Virus record (IMG/VR): IMGVR_UViG_3300021364_000005
Direction: 5' to 3' (one strand)
Source of the DNA: a virus
Taxonomy: Duplodnaviria; Caudoviricetes
Length of the DNA stretch: 64,000 bases
This document shows, one piece after another, positions 1 to 60,906 of this stretch. The position numbers and the translations under genes are program-made. How positions within the stretch are numbered: the stretch's first letter is position 1; each line of letters opens with the position of its first letter. The notes beneath the pieces were generated by a model. The model was given only the letters and a program-made list of their open reading frames with translations. It was not told the DNA's origin and searched no databases.

Positions 1-3000
1 TAATGATACAGAACCTAGTTGTAGTTCTTGCAACCCGCTAACACTAAAGTTGTCAGCATCTAGTGTAGCAGTACCAGTTGCCTGTTCAACAGTAAACAAG
101 TCGCCAACTCTAAAGTTACCATCTTGGTCTGTTGATGTATAGAATACTCTACCACCGCCACCTTCTACAGTTTCATTAGCAGGAGTTGGATTTTGTAGCG
201 GAATACCCGGATAATTGGTTTGTGTGAAATTACCTGTACCAATATCTAGGAAATCGTGTCCTGTTAATCGCACTTGTGAATATCTAATTCTATGTGTTAC
301 TGCCGCAGCGTGAGCAGGTTCCCCATCTACAGGAATCTCTGGACTTAATTGCAATCTAGCAGTATATGGTCCAGAACCACCTAATTCAAATAATTGAACA
401 AGTTTGTAGATTGTACTATCGCCTGCTATTTGAATATTTGCTCCAGGTTGCGGTTCGTCGGTTAAATTTTCTACATAAACATATTTTCCGCTTTGTAAAA
501 TATCAGCATAACCGTCACCAGTTACATCTGCACTTGCTGTCTCATAACCTGTTCCTCTATCAGCAAAGGTAGGTTGTGCAAGCACTCCGCTACCTACTCT
601 TACCGTATGGGGTACATCTACAGTGTTGTTTGGATCTGTAATTGTCATTGTAGGCGGACTTGCAGGATCATATCCAGTGCCCGGTTCTATAATTACAATT
701 TTAAATATTTTATCACCTGCGACTTTTGCTCTTCCTCTTGCAGTTGTTCCAGTTACTGGATCAGCAAACGTAACTCTTGGCTCTATTCTATAGTTTGATG
801 TTTGATCTAATGTAGTTTCAATAGCAGTTCCAGGAACAAGATGGTCCCATCCTGCTGTATCGTCACTCATTTTCTTTACTGTTGCAATTTTTGTACCAGC
901 ATTGTATGTGTCAATATAAGCATATTGTCCTACCCCTACGCCGTCTTCTATATAGATTGCCATACCAACATAGTCTGCACTATTTGCTGTATCTGTGTTC
1001 GAAATAGTAATAGTAGTTGATGTACCGCTTTGAGCATTATTGAGTGCTGTTGTGTAATCTGCACCACCATAGTTATTTGCTGGATTAGTAAGTTGCACTG
1101 CAAAAACACCATTTGTCCTTGTATTTACTGCACTAACACTTGCACCTATACCTTCACCTACAAAGCTATAAGATGCTGTTGTGTAGTTAACACCTGCATT
1201 TTCGTATTCTAGTGCTAATATTCTACTACCATCTGTAAATACGCTATTAATAATAGCTTCTGCATAGTAGTTATTTACTGTACCTGTTATAGGTGTTTCA
1301 GTAGTATCAATACCTTCAGCTACTGATCCAAAATCACCATAAGAGTTGTTTCCGTTTGTAGCACGAATCTTACCACCGTTCTCTGCAAGATATCCAATAT
1401 GGTTGTAATACGTAAACACTGACACAAGTTCTGAGCGGCCTAAGTTTGTTACCCAGTAACCAATACCATCACTTAGAATCTGTGTAAAGTCGTTAGCAAC
1501 AATTGAATCGTTTCCGCCTGCGTGTAGATCACCATCTACTTTTAATCCTATACAAGCTGTACCAAATGTTGAAACGTTTTGAATGTAAGGTGATTTGTTA
1601 TGAATCCATACAAGCCTATCATCTACACCCTCGCCTGGATCTAAACTCACATATGCACCTGCTGATGGACGACTTGTGCCATAAGAATTTGCAGCGCCTA
1701 AAGTACCTGTAAGTCCTGCTAGTGTGCAATTTCTAATACCACATCCGTTTCTAACATAAAACATATTTTCAGTTAGTGAATCACCGTCTGGAGTAATTCT
1801 TGTACTACGTAATTCGTCTCCAACAATAGCTGTATGTGAAGGAACACTAATCGGTAATGCTTCTGCATATGTTCCTGTCTTAACATATAGTGTATTATGA
1901 ATCACTTGTTCTGCAGGTAAACTTGATAAGTTTCCTGCTGTAATCGCTGCTGTTATATGTGAAACAAGTGAGTCGTAAGTGCTTTCAGCATCTGTTTCTG
2001 CTGTGTAGGCTACATCAATTACTTGTGTAACTGGAGTTGCTACACTGTTTTCTGTTTGGTAATTTGTTGCAGGAGGTGTATTTCCTAAAACTGCTGCTAC
2101 AACATCTAAACTGTAATTTATTGCTGCAACTGTTTCTGTTTCCTGGCCAGCAACGTAACTTGCACCAGCTGTTGTAAAATATGACTGCGCTGCTTTTCTT
2201 GTTTCTACATTACCGCCATGTGATATATCATACCCTACGTGTTTTACAATTCTTTTCATATCACGTAAACATTTTGTTTTATCGTATGTAAATGCTCCTG
2301 TAAATGGCGCAATCGCATTTGCAATTTGATAATCAACCCATTCAACTGTTTCTGCTGCAATAAAATCAATATTTTGATCTAAAAGATATTTTGCATTTAC
2401 ACGAGTAGTTGCATTAAGTATTTGTGAACAAGCATATGCAACTGTTAGCCAAGGCCTGTCTGCTGTAATACCATATGTCGGAGCAGGAGAGTCTGTACCT
2501 TGTGGTGAAACATAATAGACATTATCTACAAGTCCAAAATAATCCCATTCTACACCAGTGCCAGCAGTGTCAACTTTTAAAACTTGTCCCGGGTCACCAA
2601 TTGGTAATCTAGTAGGTCCAGCTCCTGAATAATAAAGAATATCACCATCTGTTGTTAAAACATTTTCTTCAGCTGTTGCACCTACTAGATTCCAAAATGT
2701 ACCATTAGAATCCAAGTCCGGTCTATTGCTTGCATTATCTGAAGTATGGTTTTGTTGAGCTACATAAGCGTTGTCGCTATATTTAACAAGATCGCCTATT
2801 TTGTATGCAGTAGCATCTGCCCAGTCGCCCTGCCATGCAAAACCTTCGTTTAGTTTGCTCCAATATGTTGTGTTTGGTGGTTCTTGTCCTGTGCTATCTG
2901 CTGTTGCAAGATATGTGTATCCATTTACTCGGACAACATCGCCCACTTTGTATGCTGTAGCAACATCCCAATCACCTTGTAGGTTAAATCCTGTAATATA

Positions 3001-3981
3001 TACGTCCCAGTCAGTAGTAGCAGTTGAAGGTGTACTACCTGAATGGTTTGTTTTTGCAACATATGTATATCCACCGTACGATACAATATCTCCAGGTTGA
3101 TAAACAGTTGCTACGTTCCAGCTATCTTCAAATTCTAAACCAGGTAAGAAAACTTCCCAATTAGATTGATCTGTTTGGAATAAACTTGTGCTAGTGTGGT
3201 ATGTTGTACAAATCCAAAGACTTGGGCCGTTTTTAACAATGTCGTTTACTACATATCTTGTGTTTTGCTGCCATGCTGATCTATAATTAATACCTTGATG
3301 ATAAACATTCCAATTTGCAATATCATTTTCTAATCCTAAAGCAGCATCAGATGTTGATGTGTGTCCTGTGATAGCAATATAGATAAACCCGTTATATTTT
3401 ACGATGTCATCTTTCTTGTATCTAGTTGATATTGCCCAATCACCTTTCCAATCAATTCCTGGAGTGAATTCATTCCAATTAGCAATATCATCTTCTAAAC
3501 CATCAGTAACAGTTTCGGCACTAGTATGCGCTGTTGCACATATGTATGTTGTACCGCCATACTTAGCAATGTCGTTAACTTTATATTTTGTGTTTATTGT
3601 CCAAGCGCCAGTATATGAAAGCCCTTCAGCAAAAATATCCCACTTAGACTGATCGTCTTCTAAGCCTAGTGCATTTGTAGCAGCAGATGTGTGTCCTGTG
3701 TTACAAATGTAAATGTATCCGCCGTTTCTAACAATGTCGTTAACTTTAAAATATTTGTTAACTACCCAGTCGCCTTCCCATGTTAGACCGTCGCCGAATT
3801 GTTGCCATTTAGGTTGAACATCGTTTAAATCAGTTTCTAGGTTTGCAGCACCTGTGTGTGCAAGTATACATATGAAGGTTTTACCTCCATACTGTACAAT
3901 ATCATCTCGTACGTACTCAGTTCCTGTCGCCCAGGCACCTTTCCAAATAAATCTAATTCTACCAAGTTTAAACTCAGCCAT
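1..3981 (-). CDS. Large virion structural/baseplate-fibre protein, >1327 aa, C-terminus runs off the left edge (absent from the ORF track); paralog of 4032..9146
   Basis: ATG at 3981 (MAEFKLGRIRFIWKGAWATGTEYVRDDIVQYGGKTFICILAH). Segments translated by hand near the start, middle and end are in one frame that reaches base 1 (3981/3=1327); I did not check every codon. N-terminal W..Y..GDIV.Y.G..Y.C...H repeats resemble CBM5/12. Beta-helix lead-in YVKTGTYAEALPISVPSHTAIVGDELRST. C-terminal RYSQVRLTGHDFLDIGTGNF...GGGRVFYTSTDQDGNFRVG matches the paralog. Confidence 0.9.
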   Translation of the reverse strand, partial: MAEFKLGRIRFIWKGAWATGTEYVRDDIVQYGGKTFICILAHTGAANLETDLNDVQPKWQQFGDGLTWEGDWVVNKYFKVNDIVRNGGYIYICNTGHTSAATNALGLEDDQSKWDIFAEGLSYTGAWTINTKYKVNDIAKYGGTTYICATAHTSAETVTDGLEDDIANWNEFTPGIDWKGDWAISTRYKKDDIVKYNGFIYIAITGHTSTSDAALGLENDIANWNVYHQGINYRSAWQQNTRYVVNDIVKNGPSLWICTTYHTSTSLFQTDQSNWEVFLPGLEFEDSWNVATVYQPGDIVSYGGYTYVAKTNHSGSTPSTATTDWDVYITGFNLQGDWDVATAYKVGDVVRVNGYTYLATADSTGQEPPNTTYWSKLNEGFAWQGDWADATAYKIGDLVKYSDNAYVAQQNHTSDNASNRPDLDSNGTFWNLVGATAEENVLTTDGDILYYSGAGPTRLPIGDPGQVLKVDTAGTGVEWDYFGLVDNVYYVSPQGTDSPAPTYGITADRPWLTVAYACSQILNATTRVNAKYLLDQNIDFIAAETVEWVDYQIANAIAPFTGAFTYDKTKCLRDMKRIVKHVGYDISHGGNVETRKAAQSYFTTAGASYVAGQETETVAAINYSLDVVAAVLGNTPPATNYQTENSVATPVTQVIDVAYTAETDAESTYDSLVSHITAAITAGNLSSLPAEQVIHNTLYVKTGTYAEALPISVPSHTAIVGDELRSTRITPDGDSLTENMFYVRNGCGIRNCTLAGLTGTLGAANSYGTSRPSAGAYVSLDPGEGVDDRLVWIHNKSPYIQNVSTFGTACIGLKVDGDLHAGGNDSIVANDFTQILSDGIGYWVTNLGRSELVSVFTYYNHIGYLAENGGKIRATNGNNSYGDFGSVAEGIDTTETPITGTVNNYYAEAIINSVFTDGSRILALEYENAGVNYTTASYSFVGEGIGASVSAVNTRTNGVFAVQLTNPANNYGGADYTTALNNAQSGTSTTITISNTDTANSADYVGMAIYIEDGVGVGQYAYIDTYNAGTKIATVKKMSDDTAGWDHLVPGTAIETTLDQTSNYRIEPRVTFADPVTGTTARGRAKVAGDKIFKIVIIEPGTGYDPASPPTMTITDPNNTVDVPHTVRVGSGVLAQPTFADRGTGYETASADVTGDGYADILQSGKYVYVENLTDEPQPGANIQIAGDSTIYKLVQLFELGGSGPYTARLQLSPEIPVDGEPAHAAAVTHRIRYSQVRLTGHDFLDIGTGNFTQTNYPGIPLQNPTPANETVEGGGGRVFYTSTDQDGNFRVGDLFTVEQATGTATLDADNFSVSGLQELQLGSVSL

Positions 3982-57780: not shown

Positions 57781-58752
57781 TTAAAATATTAGTCCAAATA
57801 GCACAGCAGTTCTATAACTTGCAAGTTCACCTGTCCTAGTTGCAGTTTGATATTTAACACCTGTGTCTTTAATACTTGTTGTATCGTGATATAATTGCAC
57901 ACCTGCTGTTGGAGCAGGTGGAGAGCTACCACTTACATCACTGTCTATTTGTAAAACATCGGCAACCTTAACGACTCCTCCTCCAGCAGCAATAAGATTT
58001 AAGTCATCGCCACTATTAGTTGAACTTATTGTAGTTCCTTGTATGGTTAAATCGTATATACTAGCTGAAGATGTACCGTATACTGCACGGTTGAATCCAT
58101 CAACTTGTATTCTTACAATACTATCAACACCTGTATTATCAAAATCTTCAGCAGATACTAATGTATCTCCTTGTGCAATCGAGCTAGGAGGGTTAGCACC
58201 TGTAAAACCAGTAATATAATCAATTACCCATTTTCTATTTGGTATATCGTCGTCACCTACAACATAATTTTCGTAGTCAGCAGCCATAGCTCTAAGAGGA
58301 TTACTACCTGCATCAAATACAAGAGGACCTCCTCCTGAGTCTATGCTATTAGTTACAATACCTGCTGTATTTTCTGTGCCGTTACTGTCAACTAGTTTAA
58401 ACTTAAATGCGCCTAATCCTTGTGTTGCGTTTACAGGATCATCATAAGGCGCACTCTCGTCAAAAACTAATCTGGCATTTGGTAAATTACCACGCACAAT
58501 TTCAATACCTGATTCGGCAGCAATACCACTTCCTGGTGTTATTCCCAATCCAGTTTCATTAATATTTAAACGAACAATTCTATCTTCAACATCTAATTCA
58601 GTTGTGTTAATAGTTGTTTGCTCGCCTTGGACAATTAAATCACCTGAAATAATCACTCTACCAACATCAACACCTGTATGTAATACAATGTCGCCGCCTG
58701 GTTGAACTGCTATTCTATAATCGCCGCCGGGTATATCAAGCATTTTACTCAT
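57781..58752 (-). CDS. 323-aa structural protein with fibre-type module
   Basis: TTINTTELDVEDRIVRLN...SGIEIVRG module shared with the giant fibres. Confidence 0.75.
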   Translation of the reverse strand: MSKMLDIPGGDYRIAVQPGGDIVLHTGVDVGRVIISGDLIVQGEQTTINTTELDVEDRIVRLNINETGLGITPGSGIAAESGIEIVRGNLPNARLVFDESAPYDDPVNATQGLGAFKFKLVDSNGTENTAGIVTNSIDSGGGPLVFDAGSNPLRAMAADYENYVVGDDDIPNRKWVIDYITGFTGANPPSSIAQGDTLVSAEDFDNTGVDSIVRIQVDGFNRAVYGTSSASIYDLTIQGTTISSTNSGDDLNLIAAGGGVVKVADVLQIDSDVSGSSPPAPTAGVQLYHDTTSIKDTGVKYQTATRTGELASYRTAVLFGLIF

Positions 58753-58766
58753 ACGTCATTATGCCT

Positions 58767-59153
58767 TTATTGTGAGTCTACGTTTGCACCTGCATCGTCT
58801 GCACCAGGATGCTCGCCTGCTGACCAACTTACTTTTGCAACATCAGCTGTTCCGCCTTCGTATTGGATCTTACGATTGTAAAATCTTGTAACTTGAACTG
58901 TTGATGAATCGTCAAGTGTTGCGTGTACTGTAAAATCACCTGCTACTAATGAAGCATTTGCTTTATTAACAAGGGTTAATACTTCTGATGTTGTACCATC
59001 TGTTACAGTAAATTTGTTTGCTGATCTTTGGTTTACAATCCAAGCTGGTGTTGTTGCACCTGCTACTTCACTGCCACCTGTAAAAAAGTAACGTGTGACT
59101 AGGATTTTGCCTGCGCCTTGACCAAAATGTCTTTTATTTAATGGACGTCCCAT
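58767..59153 (-). CDS. Hypothetical phage protein, 128 aa (MGRPLNKRHFG...)
   Basis: ORF track; AAGGAG SD; late promoter and structured leader upstream. Confidence 0.8.
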   Translation of the reverse strand: MGRPLNKRHFGQGAGKILVTRYFFTGGSEVAGATTPAWIVNQRSANKFTVTDGTTSEVLTLVNKANASLVAGDFTVHATLDDSSTVQVTRFYNRKIQYEGGTADVAKVSWSAGEHPGADDAGANVDSQ

Positions 59154-59241
59154 TTGTTTCTCCTTTTTGACGTTCTAAGTCTACGGGGTTGGTTCCCCAT
59201 AAGTCCTCATCAAGAGGTTCTCCTCTGACAATGTATTTATC
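59154..59241 (-). promoter_or_regulatory. Late promoter GATAAATA (59234-59241) and ~80-nt structured leader, possibly containing a 9-codon uORF
   Basis: AGAGG-AGAA-CCUCU; UAUGGGG-AACCAA-CCCCGUA; GAC/GUC or UUGAU/GUCAA; GAGGAG-N9-ATG AGG ACT TAT GGG GAA CCA ACC CCG TAG (59181-59210). Confidence 0.6.
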
Positions 59242-59277
59242 AAAAAAGAAAAAAGCTCGCACAGCGGCGAGCTTTTT
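59242..59277 (-). terminator. Rho-independent terminator (near-symmetric, possibly bidirectional) ending the putative ncRNA
   Basis: AAAAAGCTCGC-CGCTGT-GCGAGCTTTTT followed by further T-runs. Confidence 0.85.
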
Positions 59278-59280
59278 AAA

Positions 59281-59490
59281 TAAAAGGTGGGTGAAGGACT
59301 TGGGTATACCTCCAACTGCACGTCTAGATACCTGTCTATGTTACGTACAGAACCTTGCTCCGCTTAGTATTGCGATGTGCGTACTGCTTGTCTCCAAACT
59401 CTACGCCGGGCACTACCCCTAGCAAGTGCGCTTACCTTCTCTAGAAACAAAGTTATTAGCGCCAACCCATATAACAACGTCTTGTTATGT
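59281..59490 (-). ncRNA. Candidate ~200-nt structured non-coding RNA of unknown family
   Basis: Bounded by a sigma70 promoter and an intrinsic terminator. More GC-rich than its flanks, with no minus-strand ORF carrying a good SD. 5' hairpin AUAACAA-GACG-UUGUUAU; stems GCGCU/AGCGC, GGGU-AGU-GCCC, UAGA/UCUA and GGAGG/CCUUC; possible closing UGGGU/ACCCA. Confidence 0.6.
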
Positions 59491-59494
59491 TATT

Positions 59495-59522
59495 AATATA
59501 ACACAACTAAAATAAAAGTCAA
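59495..59522 (-). promoter_or_regulatory. Host sigma70-type promoter TTGACT-N16-TATATT with extended -10 (TGn)
   Basis: GGTTGACT TTTATTTTAGTTGTGT TATATT; the only clear sigma70 promoter I noticed in the window. Confidence 0.7.
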
Positions 59523-59605
59523 CCTTTTTTTAATAAAAAGTTAATCTTTTTTTCACGATGTTGTTTGATTAGTTGCTTGAAGCACCAAAACGTGAATCTA
59601 TCCAT
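59519..59605 (-). CDS. 28-aa basic peptide MDRFTFWCFKQLIKQHREKKINFLLKKG, downstream of the glutamine riboswitch (not in the ORF track)
   Basis: GAGGAG SD 7 nt before the ATG. The TGA stop overlaps the -35 box of the next promoter. Confidence 0.65.
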   Translation of the reverse strand: MDRFTFWCFKQLIKQHREKKINFLLKKG

Positions 59606-59634
59606 AACACTTCTCCTCGTTAAAGGTTAAAGTG

Positions 59635-59676
59635 CGTTCCTTCGCCTTATGCTACTTCCGTCCCGTAGGATGAACG
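59635..59676 (-). ncRNA. glnA RNA motif / glutamine-I riboswitch aptamer
   Basis: CGUUC A UCC-UACG-GGA CGGAAGUA GC-AUAAG-GC GAAG GAACG. P1 is CGUUC/GAACG, P2 has a UACG tetraloop, the junction is CGGAAGUA, and there is an E-loop AGUA/GAA. This is the architecture of the known glnA aptamer. Confidence 0.85.
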
Positions 59677-59682
59677 TAATAA

Positions 59683-59690
59683 TATTTAGT
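59683..59690 (-). promoter_or_regulatory. Late promoter ACTAAATA placing +1 at about the riboswitch 5' end
   Basis: TAAATA ends 6 nt upstream of aptamer P1, directly after the capsid terminator. Confidence 0.65.
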
Positions 59691-59720
59691 CAAAAAAATA
59701 GGCCCCGTAGGGCCTATTTC
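59691..59720 (-). terminator. Rho-independent terminator after the major capsid gene
   Basis: AATAGGCCC-TACG-GGGCCTATT followed by TTTTT. Confidence 0.9.
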
Positions 59721-59739: not shown

Positions 59740-60906
59740 TTAGCTAAAGCTAACTGCACCGTTAGTAATAGCAACTTTACCTAAGTAATCAGCTGCGTTA
59801 CCAAGCGATGATGCTGTGTTTGATAGCTCGACATATCCGTAACGTGTCATGAAGCTCACGACTGGCTCGAATGTGCCTGGATCAAGTACAACACCTGAAC
59901 TCATTAGCGGGATGTATGGGCAATAGAACGCTGGTGCGTCTGACTCGCTTGATCCTTTGTAACCAATAAGTACAGCTTCGCTGTCTGCTGCATATGAATC
60001 TACATATACACGCATTGCATTGTTTAGTGTACCAACCATTTTTGTGTTAGTTGGTGCTTCAAATGTTCCCTCAGTTGTACGTGCAAACGCTGAAGTTGTT
60101 GCAGACTGTAGGATTGTTAGTGCAAATGGGCTAACAACCGCATAGTTACCTGCGCCTCTACGTGTACGCTGAGCGATCAAGTTTGCAACTCTGTTGACTT
60201 GTACTGCTAGTGCAGCGTGTTCGTCACCAACGAATGTTGCAGTACCTGAAACTGCTGACTGATCATATGTTTCAGATGCTGTTCCAGCTAGTGAACGTAG
60301 TGAAGCAAGAACTTCTTGGTCGATCTCAGCAGTAATTTCCTGCGCAAGAGCTGCCATGATTTCAGCTTCAATATCGATACCATGCTGTGACTGTGCATCC
60401 TGAGCTGCCTCAAAGGTCCAACGTGCTGATAGCTTACGTGTTTTAGCTTCAACAGTTTGCTTTAAGATCTGAATGCTTAGTCTGTTACCAGCTACACCTT
60501 CTAGCGATCCTGTTGTGCTTGGAGCAGCAGAGGAGCTTGGTGCACCTGAATATGATTCAGCGATTTTGAACGGTGATAGAGCCTCTTCACCTGCTGTTGC
60601 GCCGTTGTTTCCATCAGCGTAACGAACACGTAAAGTGTGGATCTGACCAACTGGTCCTGTCATCGGCTGCACACCAACTAGTTCATTTGCAATGACTGTT
60701 GGCATAACACGTCTGATGACTGGTAAAATAACTCTGTTTAGAGTTGCGACATTACCGGCAGAAGTAGCACCAGCTGTAGCAGATTCTGAAAGATACTTGC
60801 GAGTATTTTCTAGTGTTGATTCCATTACAGCTTTCTTGTTGCCTTGTAGGCCTTCGACAAGAGCGGCTTTTGTTTCCTGCCAGCGACTTTCTAGTAGTTC
60901 TGACAT
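59740..60906 (-). CDS. gp23: Major capsid protein, T4 gp23 family (compact, 388 aa)
   Basis: RRVMPTVIANELVGVQPMTGPVGQIHTLR, VEAKTRKLSARWTFEAAQD, EITAEIDQE, FYCPYIPL and P.....TRYG are gp23 hallmarks; GGAG SD. Confidence 0.95.
   Translation of the reverse strand: MSELLESRWQETKAALVEGLQGNKKAVMESTLENTRKYLSESATAGATSAGNVATLNRVILPVIRRVMPTVIANELVGVQPMTGPVGQIHTLRVRYADGNNGATAGEEALSPFKIAESYSGAPSSSAAPSTTGSLEGVAGNRLSIQILKQTVEAKTRKLSARWTFEAAQDAQSQHGIDIEAEIMAALAQEITAEIDQEVLASLRSLAGTASETYDQSAVSGTATFVGDEHAALAVQVNRVANLIAQRTRRGAGNYAVVSPFALTILQSATTSAFARTTEGTFEAPTNTKMVGTLNNAMRVYVDSYAADSEAVLIGYKGSSESDAPAFYCPYIPLMSSGVVLDPGTFEPVVSFMTRYGYVELSNTASSLGNAADYLGKVAITNGAVSFS

What the first reader, a model, noticed from the sequence alone, without database searches (positions are those of the whole stretch)
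59519..59690. Phage glutamine riboswitch controlling a 28-aa basic peptide right after the capsid gene
Seen in sequence: a complete late transcription unit. It runs TAAATA promoter, then a 42-nt glnA-type aptamer, then a hairpin GCACUU(UAA)CCU-UUAACG-AGG(AG)AAGUGU that overlaps the end of P1 and buries the GAGGAG SD, then MDRFTFWCFKQLIKQHREKKINFLLKKG. P2's UCCU could alternatively pair with the SD. Established: glnA/glutamine-I riboswitches bind L-glutamine, and in cyanobacteria they control nitrogen genes such as gifB, a glutamine-synthetase inactivating factor (small basic proteins). Inference: during late infection the phage senses host nitrogen status and makes a peptide that may inhibit glutamine synthetase or tune assembly or lysis timing. 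The target is unknown, and I cannot confirm this unit is undescribed.
Basis: partly seen in the sequence, partly recalled or inferred. Interest (0 to 1): 0.9.

Follow-up and report, generated by a model that had tools for sequence, protein, structure and literature searches.

The report
Phage glutamine riboswitch driving a micro-peptide
Just after its capsid gene, an uncultured large marine phage carries a real glutamine-sensing RNA switch that most likely turns on a conserved, never-annotated 28-residue basic peptide of unknown target; the switch class was already known in phages, but the peptide family was not.

Summary
On the minus strand, 59678-59631 is a full type-1 glutamine riboswitch aptamer (Rfam RF01739, 49.2 bits against a gathering score of 35). 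A conserved CTAAATA promoter-like box precedes it. An SD-burying hairpin follows, and its outer stem covaries across 63 distinct related sequences. Next comes a 28-codon ORF that stays open and conserved. The hairpin starts with the last P1 base and the conserved "linchpin" C, so under the published gifB model this is most likely a glutamine-ON translational switch.

The peptide is predicted to be a single basic helix with an invariant Cys. It belongs to an unnamed family that followed 51 of 121 sampled aptamers. These include phage Melnitz, where the published annotation missed the ORF and assigned the riboswitch to a tmRNA. One tandem copy lies on a gammaproteobacterial chromosome. The peptide is not DUF4278/IF17.

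In close relatives of this phage, the same slot after the capsid gene holds two other peptide families with no detectable similarity. A second, different capsid lineage also places the cassette directly after its capsid gene.

The target (GS, PII or anything else) is untested. The unit has no terminator of its own and runs into a manA RNA. This scan had already flagged similar phage and SAR86 units on other DNA. Verdict: a new variant of a known kind, of moderate to high interest.

The parts
59740..60906 (-). Major capsid protein gene (388 aa, gp23 type); the unit starts directly after it
   Evidence: phrog_138 major head protein, E 3.5e-100. Best isolate matches are about 70% identical capsid proteins of jumbo phages GAP32, CBB, Vibrio 2.275.O and Phosso.
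59690..59719 (-). Intrinsic terminator of the capsid gene (stem 59719-59696, then a T run)
   Evidence: The hairpin at 59696-59719 is a palindrome. The scanner listed it on the + strand (10 pairs). Read on the minus strand it is followed by the T run 59697-59691. It is conserved in relatives.
59683..59689 (-). CTAAATA late-promoter-like box, 6 nt before P1
   Evidence: Kept at the same position in 35 of 38 capsid-linked relatives. nTAAATA(c/t) boxes sit in nearly every intergenic gap of the window: 9 of 28 minus-strand copies lie in about 2.4% of the sequence. Promoter function is inferred.
59631..59678 (-). Type-1 glutamine riboswitch aptamer (glnA RNA)
   Evidence: RF01739, 49.2 bits against gathering 35, full model 1-53. 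P3 covaries among relatives (CG 38, GC 17, AU 8).
59607..59635 (-). Expression platform: SD-sequestering hairpin. It starts with the last P1 base (G59635) and the linchpin C59634.
   Evidence: -9.9 kcal/mol, z -3.7. The outer stem is 99.4% paired over 63 distinct sequences with compensatory changes (UA 31, CG 28, UG 4); slid controls give 27-53% for the whole structure. Stability falls from -9.4 to -5.4 kcal/mol when G59635 and C59634 are withheld.
59613..59618 (-). Shine-Dalgarno GAGGAG, 7 nt before the AUG
   Evidence: Read from the sequence. Five of its six bases pair in the MFE hairpin; the modelled unpaired probabilities are 0.19, 0.04, 0.01, 0.02, 0.99 and 0.06.
59519..59605 (-). 28-codon ORF (stop included) encoding MDRFTFWCFKQLIKQHREKKINFLLKKG, family A
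   Evidence: The ORF is open in all 15 distinct close homologues, with many synonymous differences. Family alignments A2 and A3 show an invariant Cys8 and aromatics at positions 4 and 7. 16 clusters were found among 1.84 billion representatives. A variant in RNA libraries keeps the frame.
59495..59522 (-). Sigma-70-like promoter (TTGACT, 16 nt, TG-TATATT) whose -35 box overlaps the peptide's last codon and stop
   Evidence: 10 of 12 consensus positions with an extended -10. Conserved after the slot in relatives carrying peptide families A, B or C.
59283..59487 (-). manA RNA motif, lying in the same terminator-bounded interval
   Evidence: RF01745, 80.9 bits against gathering 55.2. Contigs covering 59275-59499 occur in four RNA libraries.
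59250..59277 (-). First intrinsic terminator downstream of the riboswitch and ORF
   Evidence: 11-pair stem followed by a T run.

Best explanation
This is a genuine type-1 glutamine riboswitch in the late structural region of an uncultured marine large myovirus.

**Proposed mechanism**
- Transcription probably starts a few bases after the conserved CTAAATA box, just downstream of the capsid-gene terminator (inferred).
- Without glutamine, the bases right after P1 (G59635, the linchpin C59634 and ACUUU) pair with the stretch between the SD and the AUG. This hairpin covers the SD GAGGAG, so translation is off.
- When glutamine binds, P1 closes and C59634 is drawn into the long-range G-C pair described for this riboswitch class. 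The hairpin loses its base pairs (about 4 kcal/mol) and ribosomes can load, so translation is on.

**Product**
The product is a 28-residue peptide with net charge +6, predicted to be a single helix. It belongs to a conserved family (aromatic-x-x-aromatic-Cys-[aromatic/Arg]-[Lys/Arg]...) that phages of several lineages, and at least one gammaproteobacterium, place behind this same riboswitch.

**Shown versus inferred**
- Shown: aptamer membership, covariation of the hairpin, and conservation of the ORF and of its genomic slot.
- Inferred by analogy to gifB: the ON direction.
- Unknown: the target. My best guess, at about 25-30%, is a host nitrogen-assimilation protein, which would make the peptide a functional analogue of IF17 rather than a homologue.
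For: - **Aptamer:** 49.2 bits, full length.
- **Platform hairpin:** z -3.7. Its outer stem is 99.4% paired with compensatory changes across 63 distinct sequences, and the slid controls collapse.
- **Linchpin C:** the C that opens the hairpin is invariant. It corresponds to C60/C68 in the published model, where glutamine binding melts the helix attached to P1 and frees the RBS; gifB reporters switch ON (PMC6212724). Constrained folding gives -9.4 to -5.4 kcal/mol.
- **ORF:** an SD-proximal short ORF follows nearly every viral aptamer. Family A follows 51 of 121 aptamers, with 35 distinct peptides. The frame is open in all 15 close homologues. An independent HMM search found 16 clusters of 29-72 aa.
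- **Melnitz:** it has the same aptamer, hairpin and a 32-codon family-A ORF.
- **Bacterial copy:** it sits behind tandem aptamers on a contig that also carries ftsK, lolA, trxB, PII and nadE.
- **Promoter box:** conserved.
- **RNA libraries:** contigs cover 59470-59717, and none cover the next two genes.
- **Structure:** the AF2 model of a 32-aa homologue is one helix with pLDDT 91.
Against: - There is no ligand-binding, translation or peptide-detection data for any family-A unit.
- In the nearest-neighbour model the SD stays mostly paired even in the bound-like state (unpaired probability rises only from about 0.02 to about 0.13). The switch therefore depends on 3D effects or ribosome-assisted opening that were not modelled.
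- The aptamer core is invariant in my set by construction, because I retrieved the loci with an exact pattern.
- RNA-library contigs are unstranded and may contain DNA. Their ends (59679, 59716, 59717) do not fix a transcription start.
- The synonymous share of codon differences is only modestly raised (537 synonymous against 1087 non-synonymous).
- No known family, fold or partner was found for the peptide.
Confidence: 0.7

Rival explanations
1. The peptide is a glutamine-synthetase inactivating factor. When glutamine is high, the phage shuts down host GS as IF7/IF17 do in cyanobacteria.
For: - The same riboswitch class controls gifB/IF17 (PMC6212724).
- Other viral loci in my sample carry YRG-repeat, DUF4278-like peptides behind the same aptamer.
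- The peptide is small and basic like IF7.
- The one bacterial homologue lies about 4.5 kb from PII and the glutamine-dependent NAD synthetase gene.
Against: - There is no DUF4278 hit and no YRG motif.
- The capsid's nearest isolates infect Proteobacteria, where no GS-inactivating peptides are known to me (own knowledge).
- The Melnitz authors state that its OM43 host lacks glnA (PMC9004378; I did not check this), yet Melnitz carries a family-A ORF.
- No binding test was possible.
Confidence: 0.2
2. The peptide serves virion morphogenesis or late-stage timing (for example a capsid-associated or DNA-binding basic helix) rather than host metabolism. Glutamine sensing would then simply gate a nitrogen-costly late step.
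For: - The cassette sits directly after the major capsid gene in two different capsid lineages. 43 sampled loci, counting this window, have the gp23-type capsid gene upstream, and 13 loci have a phrog_267 capsid gene upstream.
- It follows a late-type promoter box.
- The peptide is strongly basic.
Against: - In close relatives the same slot holds two other peptide families with no detectable similarity, which is unusual for a structural component.
- Family A also occurs away from capsid genes: in Melnitz-like phages before the late-transcription coactivator gene, and elsewhere after a virion structural protein gene that follows the terminase gene.
- Family A also occurs in a bacterial chromosome.
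Confidence: 0.15
3. The switch is glutamine-OFF. Ligand-stabilised P1 stacks on and stabilises the SD hairpin, so the peptide is made only when glutamine is scarce.
For: - P1 and the hairpin are directly adjacent and could stack coaxially.
- Secondary-structure modelling leaves the hairpin largely intact in the bound-like state.
Against: - The hairpin's first two pairs use G59635 (needed for P1) and the linchpin C59634 (needed for the ligand-induced long-range pair), so the full hairpin and the bound aptamer exclude each other.
- Both tested glutamine riboswitch types raise expression when nitrogen rises (PMC6212724).
Confidence: 0.1
4. The short ORF is only a leader. The act of translating it, not the peptide, matters, for example by modulating the overlapping sigma-70-like promoter, the downstream manA RNA or transcript stability.
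For: - The ORF's last codon and stop form the -35 box of a conserved promoter.
- No terminator separates it from the manA RNA.
- Three different peptide families can occupy the slot.
Against: - The amino-acid pattern (invariant Cys8, aromatics at positions 4 and 7, a basic and hydrophobic periodicity) is kept across lineages whose flanks are unrelated. These include Melnitz, a podovirus-like capsid lineage and a bacterium.
- In those contexts no manA RNA follows.
Confidence: 0.07

Closest known systems
Type-1 glutamine riboswitch of Synechocystis gifB controlling IF17 (Klahn et al. 2018, PMC6212724)
   Same: Same aptamer class (RF01739). The conserved C after P1 takes part in pairing with the ribosome-binding region. 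It controls translation of a small basic protein. It has been shown to be glutamine-ON.
   Different: The product here is a 28-aa single helix with no DUF4278 or YRG motif. The unit is phage-borne, sits after a capsid gene and follows a late-type promoter box rather than an NtcA-controlled promoter. The host is probably not a cyanobacterium. The target is unknown.
Glutamine riboswitch of Methylophilales phage Melnitz, published as controlling a two-piece tmRNA (Buchholz et al. 2022, PMC9004378)
   Same: The aptamer plus platform is 87% identical over 75 nt, the only close hit among 50,697 phage records. It has the same SD hairpin and a family-A ORF of 32 codons.
   Different: In Melnitz the unit lies immediately 3' of the tmRNA. 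The Rfam tmRNA models end at L001 2947 and 2992, and the aptamer starts at 3000. It lies before the late-transcription coactivator gene, not after the capsid gene. The published annotation has no plus-strand ORF there and calls a minus-strand hypothetical gene instead. My reading is that the riboswitch controls the unannotated peptide, not the tmRNA.
Glutamine-II (Downstream-peptide) riboswitch with DUF4278 mini-proteins in Prochlorococcus/Synechococcus (Weinberg 2010, PMC2864571; PMC6212724)
   Same: A glutamine aptamer in the 5' UTR of a very short conserved ORF.
   Different: The aptamer architecture differs: RF01704 scores only 18.5 bits here against a gathering score of 33. The peptide family differs too.
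Tandem glutamine riboswitches before small basic proteins in SAR86 and other marine heterotrophs
   Same: Same aptamer class and the same style of platform, with the sequence right after P1 pairing just 3' of the SD. The products are small basic peptides.
   Different: These are cellular, usually have tandem aptamers, and encode other peptide families (52-56 aa). Family A was not found in the 5 genomes holding those loci, nor at significance in 401 sampled genomes of the same class.
glnA RNA copies reported in T4-like cyanophages (for example S-CREM1, PMC9964418)
   Same: A phage-borne RF01739 element, often found together with manA RNA.
   Different: Those reports list the RNA only, without a downstream gene or platform. 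Here the phage lineage has a capsid closest to jumbo phages of Proteobacteria.

Membership tests
Glutamine riboswitch, type 1 (glnA RNA, Rfam RF01739) | Covariance-model score at or above the curated gathering score over the full model | tested here: met
   49.2 bits against 35, model positions 1-53 of 53.
Glutamine riboswitch, type 1 (glnA RNA, Rfam RF01739) | P1, P2 and P3 helices plus the conserved junction bases (CGUUCA, ACGGAAGUAG, GAAGGAACGC) | tested here: met
   All upper-case consensus positions match. P2 is short (3 bp with a UACG loop). P3 covaries among relatives.
Glutamine riboswitch, type 1 (glnA RNA, Rfam RF01739) | Conserved C directly 3' of P1, available for the ligand-induced long-range G-C pair | tested here: met
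   C59634 is invariant in 64 aligned sequences. The retrieval pattern forced this, however. Its role comes from PMC6212724.
Glutamine riboswitch, type 1 (glnA RNA, Rfam RF01739) | Selective binding of L-glutamine with a structural change | not testable with these tools
   Needs in-line probing, ITC or a reporter assay.
Glutamine riboswitch, type 1 (glnA RNA, Rfam RF01739) | Sits in the 5' UTR of a gene, with an expression platform | tested here: met
   The covarying SD hairpin and the ORF start 26 nt after the aptamer.
GS inactivating factors IF7/IF17 and IF17-like proteins (Pfam DUF4278, PF14105) | Match to the DUF4278 profile or YRG-type repeats | tested here: not met
   The window peptide and its Melnitz homologue give no DUF4278 hit even at E up to 10. 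Other viral peptides behind the same aptamer do match weakly: 19.9-23.2 bits, below the 25.3 cut-off.
GS inactivating factors IF7/IF17 and IF17-like proteins (Pfam DUF4278, PF14105) | Binds and inactivates glutamine synthetase | not testable with these tools
   The host and its GS are unknown. A biochemical assay is needed.
Glutamine-II riboswitch (Downstream-peptide, RF01704) | Covariance-model score at or above the gathering score | tested here: not met
   18.5 bits against 33.
T4-type late promoter (TATAAATA) | Consensus octamer a few bases upstream of the transcript start, recurring before late genes | tested here: inconclusive
   The box here is CTAAATA, not TATAAATA. nTAAATA(c/t) is strongly enriched in the intergenic gaps of the window and is positionally conserved in relatives. 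No transcript 5' end was mapped.
Peptide family A (unnamed; defined here by alignments A2 and A3) | About 28-38 aa, aromatics at positions 4 and 7, Cys at 8, basic at 10, then a basic and hydrophobic helix; located directly behind an RF01739 aptamer | tested here: met
   The profile search recovered 16 clusters at E 1e-3 or better.

The most novel reading that the evidence does not exclude
Family A is a glutamine-induced micro-protein regulator of nitrogen assimilation in marine Proteobacteria, acting on GS, PII or a glutamine-dependent enzyme. Phages of several lineages would have captured it together with its riboswitch and would deploy it late in infection. That would make it a non-cyanobacterial, phage-exploited counterpart of IF7/IF17. 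The families that share its slot would be interchangeable effectors on the same pathway.
Probability: 0.25. Interest if true: 0.8.

Novelty: new variant of a known kind. Interest (0 to 1): 0.6.

Why it matters
Glutamine riboswitches were long treated as a cyanobacterial device for controlling GS-inactivating factors. This unit shows the same sensor and the same switching logic wired to a different micro-peptide, one that gene callers and published annotations missed.

- The cassette recurs directly after the capsid gene in two different phage capsid lineages.
- It also occurs in an isolated, culturable phage-host pair (Melnitz/OM43) and in a bacterial chromosome.
- It gives a concrete, testable reading of the published Melnitz riboswitch: it controls a peptide, not a tmRNA.
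- It identifies a set of interchangeable peptide payloads. Their targets would show what a phage gains by reading the host's glutamine level during late infection.

If the target is a nitrogen-assimilation protein, this would be the first such inhibitor family outside cyanobacteria.

Tried and rejected
- **Pfam, PHROGs and ESM Atlas on the peptide:** nothing usable.
- **Profile-profile comparison of families A, B and C:** no relation detected (probabilities 1.3% or less). I therefore dropped the idea that they share an N-terminal module.
- **Search for the A/B/C-type platform in 185,579 species genomes:** 0 hits. I first read this as phage exclusivity. I withdrew that once the HMM search led to bacterial contig L221, whose second aptamer does not fit my exact pattern.
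- **Family A in 401 sampled genomes of the SAR86 class:** only chance-level hits of 21 bits or less. It was absent from the 5 genomes that hold cellular aptamers.
- **Complex prediction of the L221 PII trimer with the L221 peptide:** no verdict (score 0.02). This is not evidence either way.
- **First structure prediction:** I rebuilt the alignment without that row.
- **Whole-leader RNA folding:** no better than shuffles (z -0.54), as expected for a pseudoknotted aptamer. Only the platform hairpin stands out.
- **CTAAATA as an exact 7-mer:** not enriched in the window. The shorter TAAATA core is enriched in the intergenic gaps.
- **Own-genome search:** no genome is held for this window.
- **Host identity:** could not be established. 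There are no tRNAs in the window, and sequencing-run names are coded.

Full report
**1. What is in the sequence**

All genes in the window lie on the minus strand. Read on that strand, the region runs in this order:

- A 388-aa gp23-type major capsid gene at 60906-59740 (phrog_138, E 3.5e-100).
- A hairpin terminator, stem 59719-59696 followed by a T run.
- A CTAAATA box at 59689-59683.
- The aptamer at 59678-59631.
- A hairpin at 59635-59607 containing the SD GAGGAG (59618-59613).
- AUG at 59605, then a 28-codon ORF ending with the stop at 59521-59519.

Rfam scores the aptamer as a full-length glutamine riboswitch: RF01739, 49.2 bits against a gathering score of 35. The related Glutamine-II model scores only 18.5 bits against 33.

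**2. The expression platform is real**

On its own, the hairpin folds at -9.9 kcal/mol, z -3.7 against shuffles.

I then aligned 64 aptamer-to-AUG sequences that carry this platform type.

- The five outer-stem pairs are 99.4% paired.
- They show compensatory changes: pair 51:73 is UA 31, CG 28, UG 4, and pair 52:72 is UG 38, UA 16, CG 7.
- Sliding the 3' partners drops pairing over the whole structure to 27-53%.
- Caveat: the aptamer core is invariant by construction of the search, so only P3 and the platform carry information.

The hairpin's first two pairs use G59635, the last base of P1, and C59634, the conserved C directly after P1. Klahn et al. summarise the structural work on this class. 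Glutamine binding creates a long-range G-C pair involving exactly this C and melts a short helix attached to P1. In gifB that C and its neighbours pair with the RBS, and the authors postulate translational activation. Their reporters rise after an ammonium upshift (PMC6212724).

Withholding G59635 and C59634 weakens the hairpin from -9.4 to -5.4 kcal/mol. By the usual dependence of initiation on hairpin stability (own knowledge), that is a large effect. However, the nearest-neighbour model still leaves the SD mostly paired. I therefore read the unit as a glutamine-ON translational switch. The direction is an inference by analogy and has not been demonstrated.

**3. The promoter**

CTAAATA sits 6-10 nt before P1 in 35 of 38 relatives that share the capsid gene, always just after the capsid terminator. 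Within the window, 9 of the 28 minus-strand TAAATA copies lie in the roughly 1.5 kb of intergenic sequence, one in nearly every gap before a gene. This fits a T4-like late promoter variant, but it is not the T4 octamer.

Contigs from metatranscriptome libraries cover 59470-59679, 59539-59717 and 59650-59716. None cover the next two genes (58700-59084). The manA stretch, 59275-59499, appears in four RNA libraries. These contigs are unstranded and their ends disagree, so the transcription start is not fixed. The variant seen in the RNA libraries keeps the ORF intact, with K14R, F23S and two synonymous changes.

**4. The ORF encodes a conserved peptide**

Nearly every viral aptamer in the sample is followed by an SD and a short ORF. 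The products sort into the following families:

| Family | Size | Count or note |
|---|---|---|
| A (this window) | 28-51 aa in the sample | 51 of 121 aptamer instances, 35 distinct peptides |
| B | about 64 aa | 24 instances |
| C | about 50 aa | 12 instances |
| D | YRG repeats | Weak, sub-threshold DUF4278 matches |
| E | small, Cys-rich | By eye it aligns with one branch of family A |

Family A features:
- An invariant Cys at position 8 (33 of 33 in alignment A3).
- Aromatic residues at positions 4 and 7.
- Lys or Arg at position 10.
- His, Tyr or Trp at position 16.
- A basic and hydrophobic tail.

All 15 distinct close homologues keep the frame. AlphaFold2 on a 32-aa homologue with the family alignment gives one helix (residues 3-31, pLDDT 91). 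The window peptide has net charge +6.

An exhaustive profile search of 1.84 billion cluster representatives found 16 clusters at E 1e-3 or better, all 29-72 aa. Pfam, PHROGs and the ESM Atlas give nothing. In particular there is no DUF4278 match, so the peptide is not a GifB/IF17 homologue.

**5. Where the cassette sits**

The capsid protein is about 70% identical to those of jumbo phages of Proteobacteria (GAP32, CBB, Vibrio 2.275.O, Phosso). The window is filled with giant structural ORFs.

- 43 sampled loci, counting this window, carry a capsid gene 74-89% identical directly upstream of the aptamer.
- In that same slot, different relatives carry family A, B or C. The terminator, promoter box, aptamer and platform stay alike, and so does a downstream sigma-70-like promoter.
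- Profile-profile comparison detects no relation among A, B and C. The payload therefore appears to be exchangeable behind a constant sensor.
- A second lineage, with a different 310-aa capsid protein (phrog_267), also places a family-A cassette directly after its capsid gene and before a tail-fibre gene (13 loci).
- Elsewhere, family A lies before the late-transcription coactivator gene (Melnitz type) or after a virion structural protein gene that follows the terminase gene.

**6. Melnitz**

Melnitz is the only close match among 50,697 phage records (87% over 75 nt). The paper states that the riboswitch lies in the 3' domain of a two-piece tmRNA and controls it (PMC9004378).

- In the record, the Rfam tmRNA models end at L001 2947 and 2992.
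- The aptamer is at 3000-3048, and the same SD hairpin follows.
- A 32-codon family-A ORF lies at 3071-3169, where only a minus-strand hypothetical gene is annotated.

The simplest reading is that the Melnitz riboswitch controls this peptide.

**7. Not phage-only**

My exact pattern for the A/B/C-type platform found nothing in 185,579 species genomes. The generic aptamer pattern found 97 cellular loci:
- Cyanobacteria, with gifB-type YRG proteins.
- SAR86, SAR116 and other marine heterotrophs, with tandem aptamers, a similar platform and yet other small basic peptides.

One profile hit, P0009, is a tandem duplication of family A on a 22-kb contig. That contig carries rarA, lolA, ftsK, trxB, a PII gene, glutamine-dependent NAD synthetase, pdxA and a CobW-like gene. 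Two RF01739 aptamers (62 and 58 bits) sit in front of the peptide gene.

Family A therefore exists in at least one gammaproteobacterial chromosome. It was not found at significance in 401 sampled genomes of the SAR86 class. The direction of transfer is unknown. The bacterial copy tilts the odds towards a role in host physiology rather than a purely virion-related one.

**8. Function**

Nothing here identifies the target.
- In favour of a nitrogen-assimilation target: the analogy with gifB, the presence of DUF4278-like payloads behind the same aptamer in other phages, and the bacterial copy a few kb from PII and nadE.
- Against GS specifically: the lack of homology to IF7/IF17, and the Melnitz authors' statement that OM43 lacks glnA (not checked).
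- The recurrent position after the capsid gene keeps a morphogenesis-linked role open.

**9. Surroundings**

The ORF has no terminator of its own. Its last codon and stop form the -35 box of a sigma-70-like promoter (59522-59495). After that come:
- A manA RNA (RF01745, 80.9 bits, 59487-59283).
- A terminator (59277-59250).
- Another TAAATA box (59239-59234).
- A slightly sub-threshold freshwater-2 RNA (45.0 bits against 49.9, 59219-59151).
- The 128-aa gene.

Relatives carry manA, freshwater-2 or both in the same interval.

**10. Novelty**

Known already:
- The riboswitch class.
- Its ON control of a small protein.
- Its presence in cyanophages, Melnitz and pelagimyophage genomes assembled from metagenomes (PMC6212724, PMC9964418, PMC9004378).

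I found no paper covering the following:
- Peptide family A.
- The covarying phage platform.
- The exchangeable payloads in a fixed post-capsid slot.
- The re-reading of the Melnitz unit.
- The bacterial homologue.

This scan had already flagged similar phage and SAR86 units on other DNA. I rate the finding a new variant of a known kind, with interest 0.6.

Noticed in passing
window 59283-59487 (-), with promoter 59522-59495 and terminator 59277-59250: This is a manA RNA (RF01745, 80.9 bits) with its own conserved sigma-70-like promoter and terminator. Other first-reader notes on this window described the same stretch as an unidentified stand-alone ncRNA. Contigs matching it occur in four RNA libraries.
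   Followed up: partly
window 59151-59219 (-): A freshwater-2 RNA motif lies just below threshold (45.0 bits against gathering 49.9), directly before the AUG of the 128-aa gene and after a TAAATA box at 59239-59234. Relatives have above-threshold copies at the same place. The capsid-to-next-gene interval therefore stacks three cis-regulatory RNA motifs.
   Followed up: partly
loci L002, L022, L110 and others (family B); L005, L037, L066, L088 and others (family C): Close relatives (capsid 84-89% identical) carry different peptides of about 64 aa or about 50 aa in the same riboswitch slot. Alignments A4 and A5 show strong conservation within each family. Neither family has a Pfam match.
   Followed up: partly
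L001 3094-3195 (Melnitz gene 89, minus strand) against 3071-3169 (plus strand): The annotated minus-strand hypothetical gene overlaps the plus-strand family-A ORF that follows the riboswitch. The annotation is probably on the wrong strand. ARAGORN's tmRNA range (to 3038) overlaps the aptamer, whereas the Rfam tmRNA models stop before it.
   Followed up: yes
L221 9854-10219 (same DNA as L218 3854-4219): A bacterial contig carries two tandem glutamine aptamers and then a 72-aa ORF that is an in-frame duplication of a family-A peptide. The duplication includes a copied 3' aptamer end and platform between the two copies. A PII gene and a glutamine-dependent NAD synthetase gene lie about 4.5 kb upstream.
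   Followed up: partly
L131, L132, L150, L160, L187, L194, L201, L216 (SAR86 genomes); L123, L152, L200, L205: In cellular genomes, tandem glutamine aptamers are followed by the same style of SD hairpin and by 52-54-aa basic peptides. These end in FFPYYL or DGSYGL and make up two further small-protein families.
   Followed up: no
L136, L141, L151, L158, L186, L206 (SAR86): A single glutamine aptamer lies upstream of a roughly 200-aa protein with a signal-peptide-like N-terminus. It resembles the riboswitch-plus-porin pairing reported for SAR86 in PMC12379486.
   Followed up: no
L021, L044, L064, L070, L079, L080 (viral); L137, L182, L190 (MAG labelled Rickettsiales): Here the aptamer is followed by a very short hairpin and what looks like a GTG start inside the hairpin's 3' arm (GAAGUGCGUGAAA...). 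This is another platform and payload type that my ATG-based ORF caller skipped.
   Followed up: no
window 4021 and 27725 (-): Two TAAATA boxes are followed by near-identical leaders (…ttaggggagagtgaacc…) ahead of giant structural genes. This suggests a shared 5' UTR element.
   Followed up: no
window 58700-59084: Four RNA libraries show zero contig depth over the 128-aa and 323-aa genes, while the intergenic RNAs and the capsid gene are covered. This may reflect real expression differences or sequence divergence between strains.
   Followed up: no
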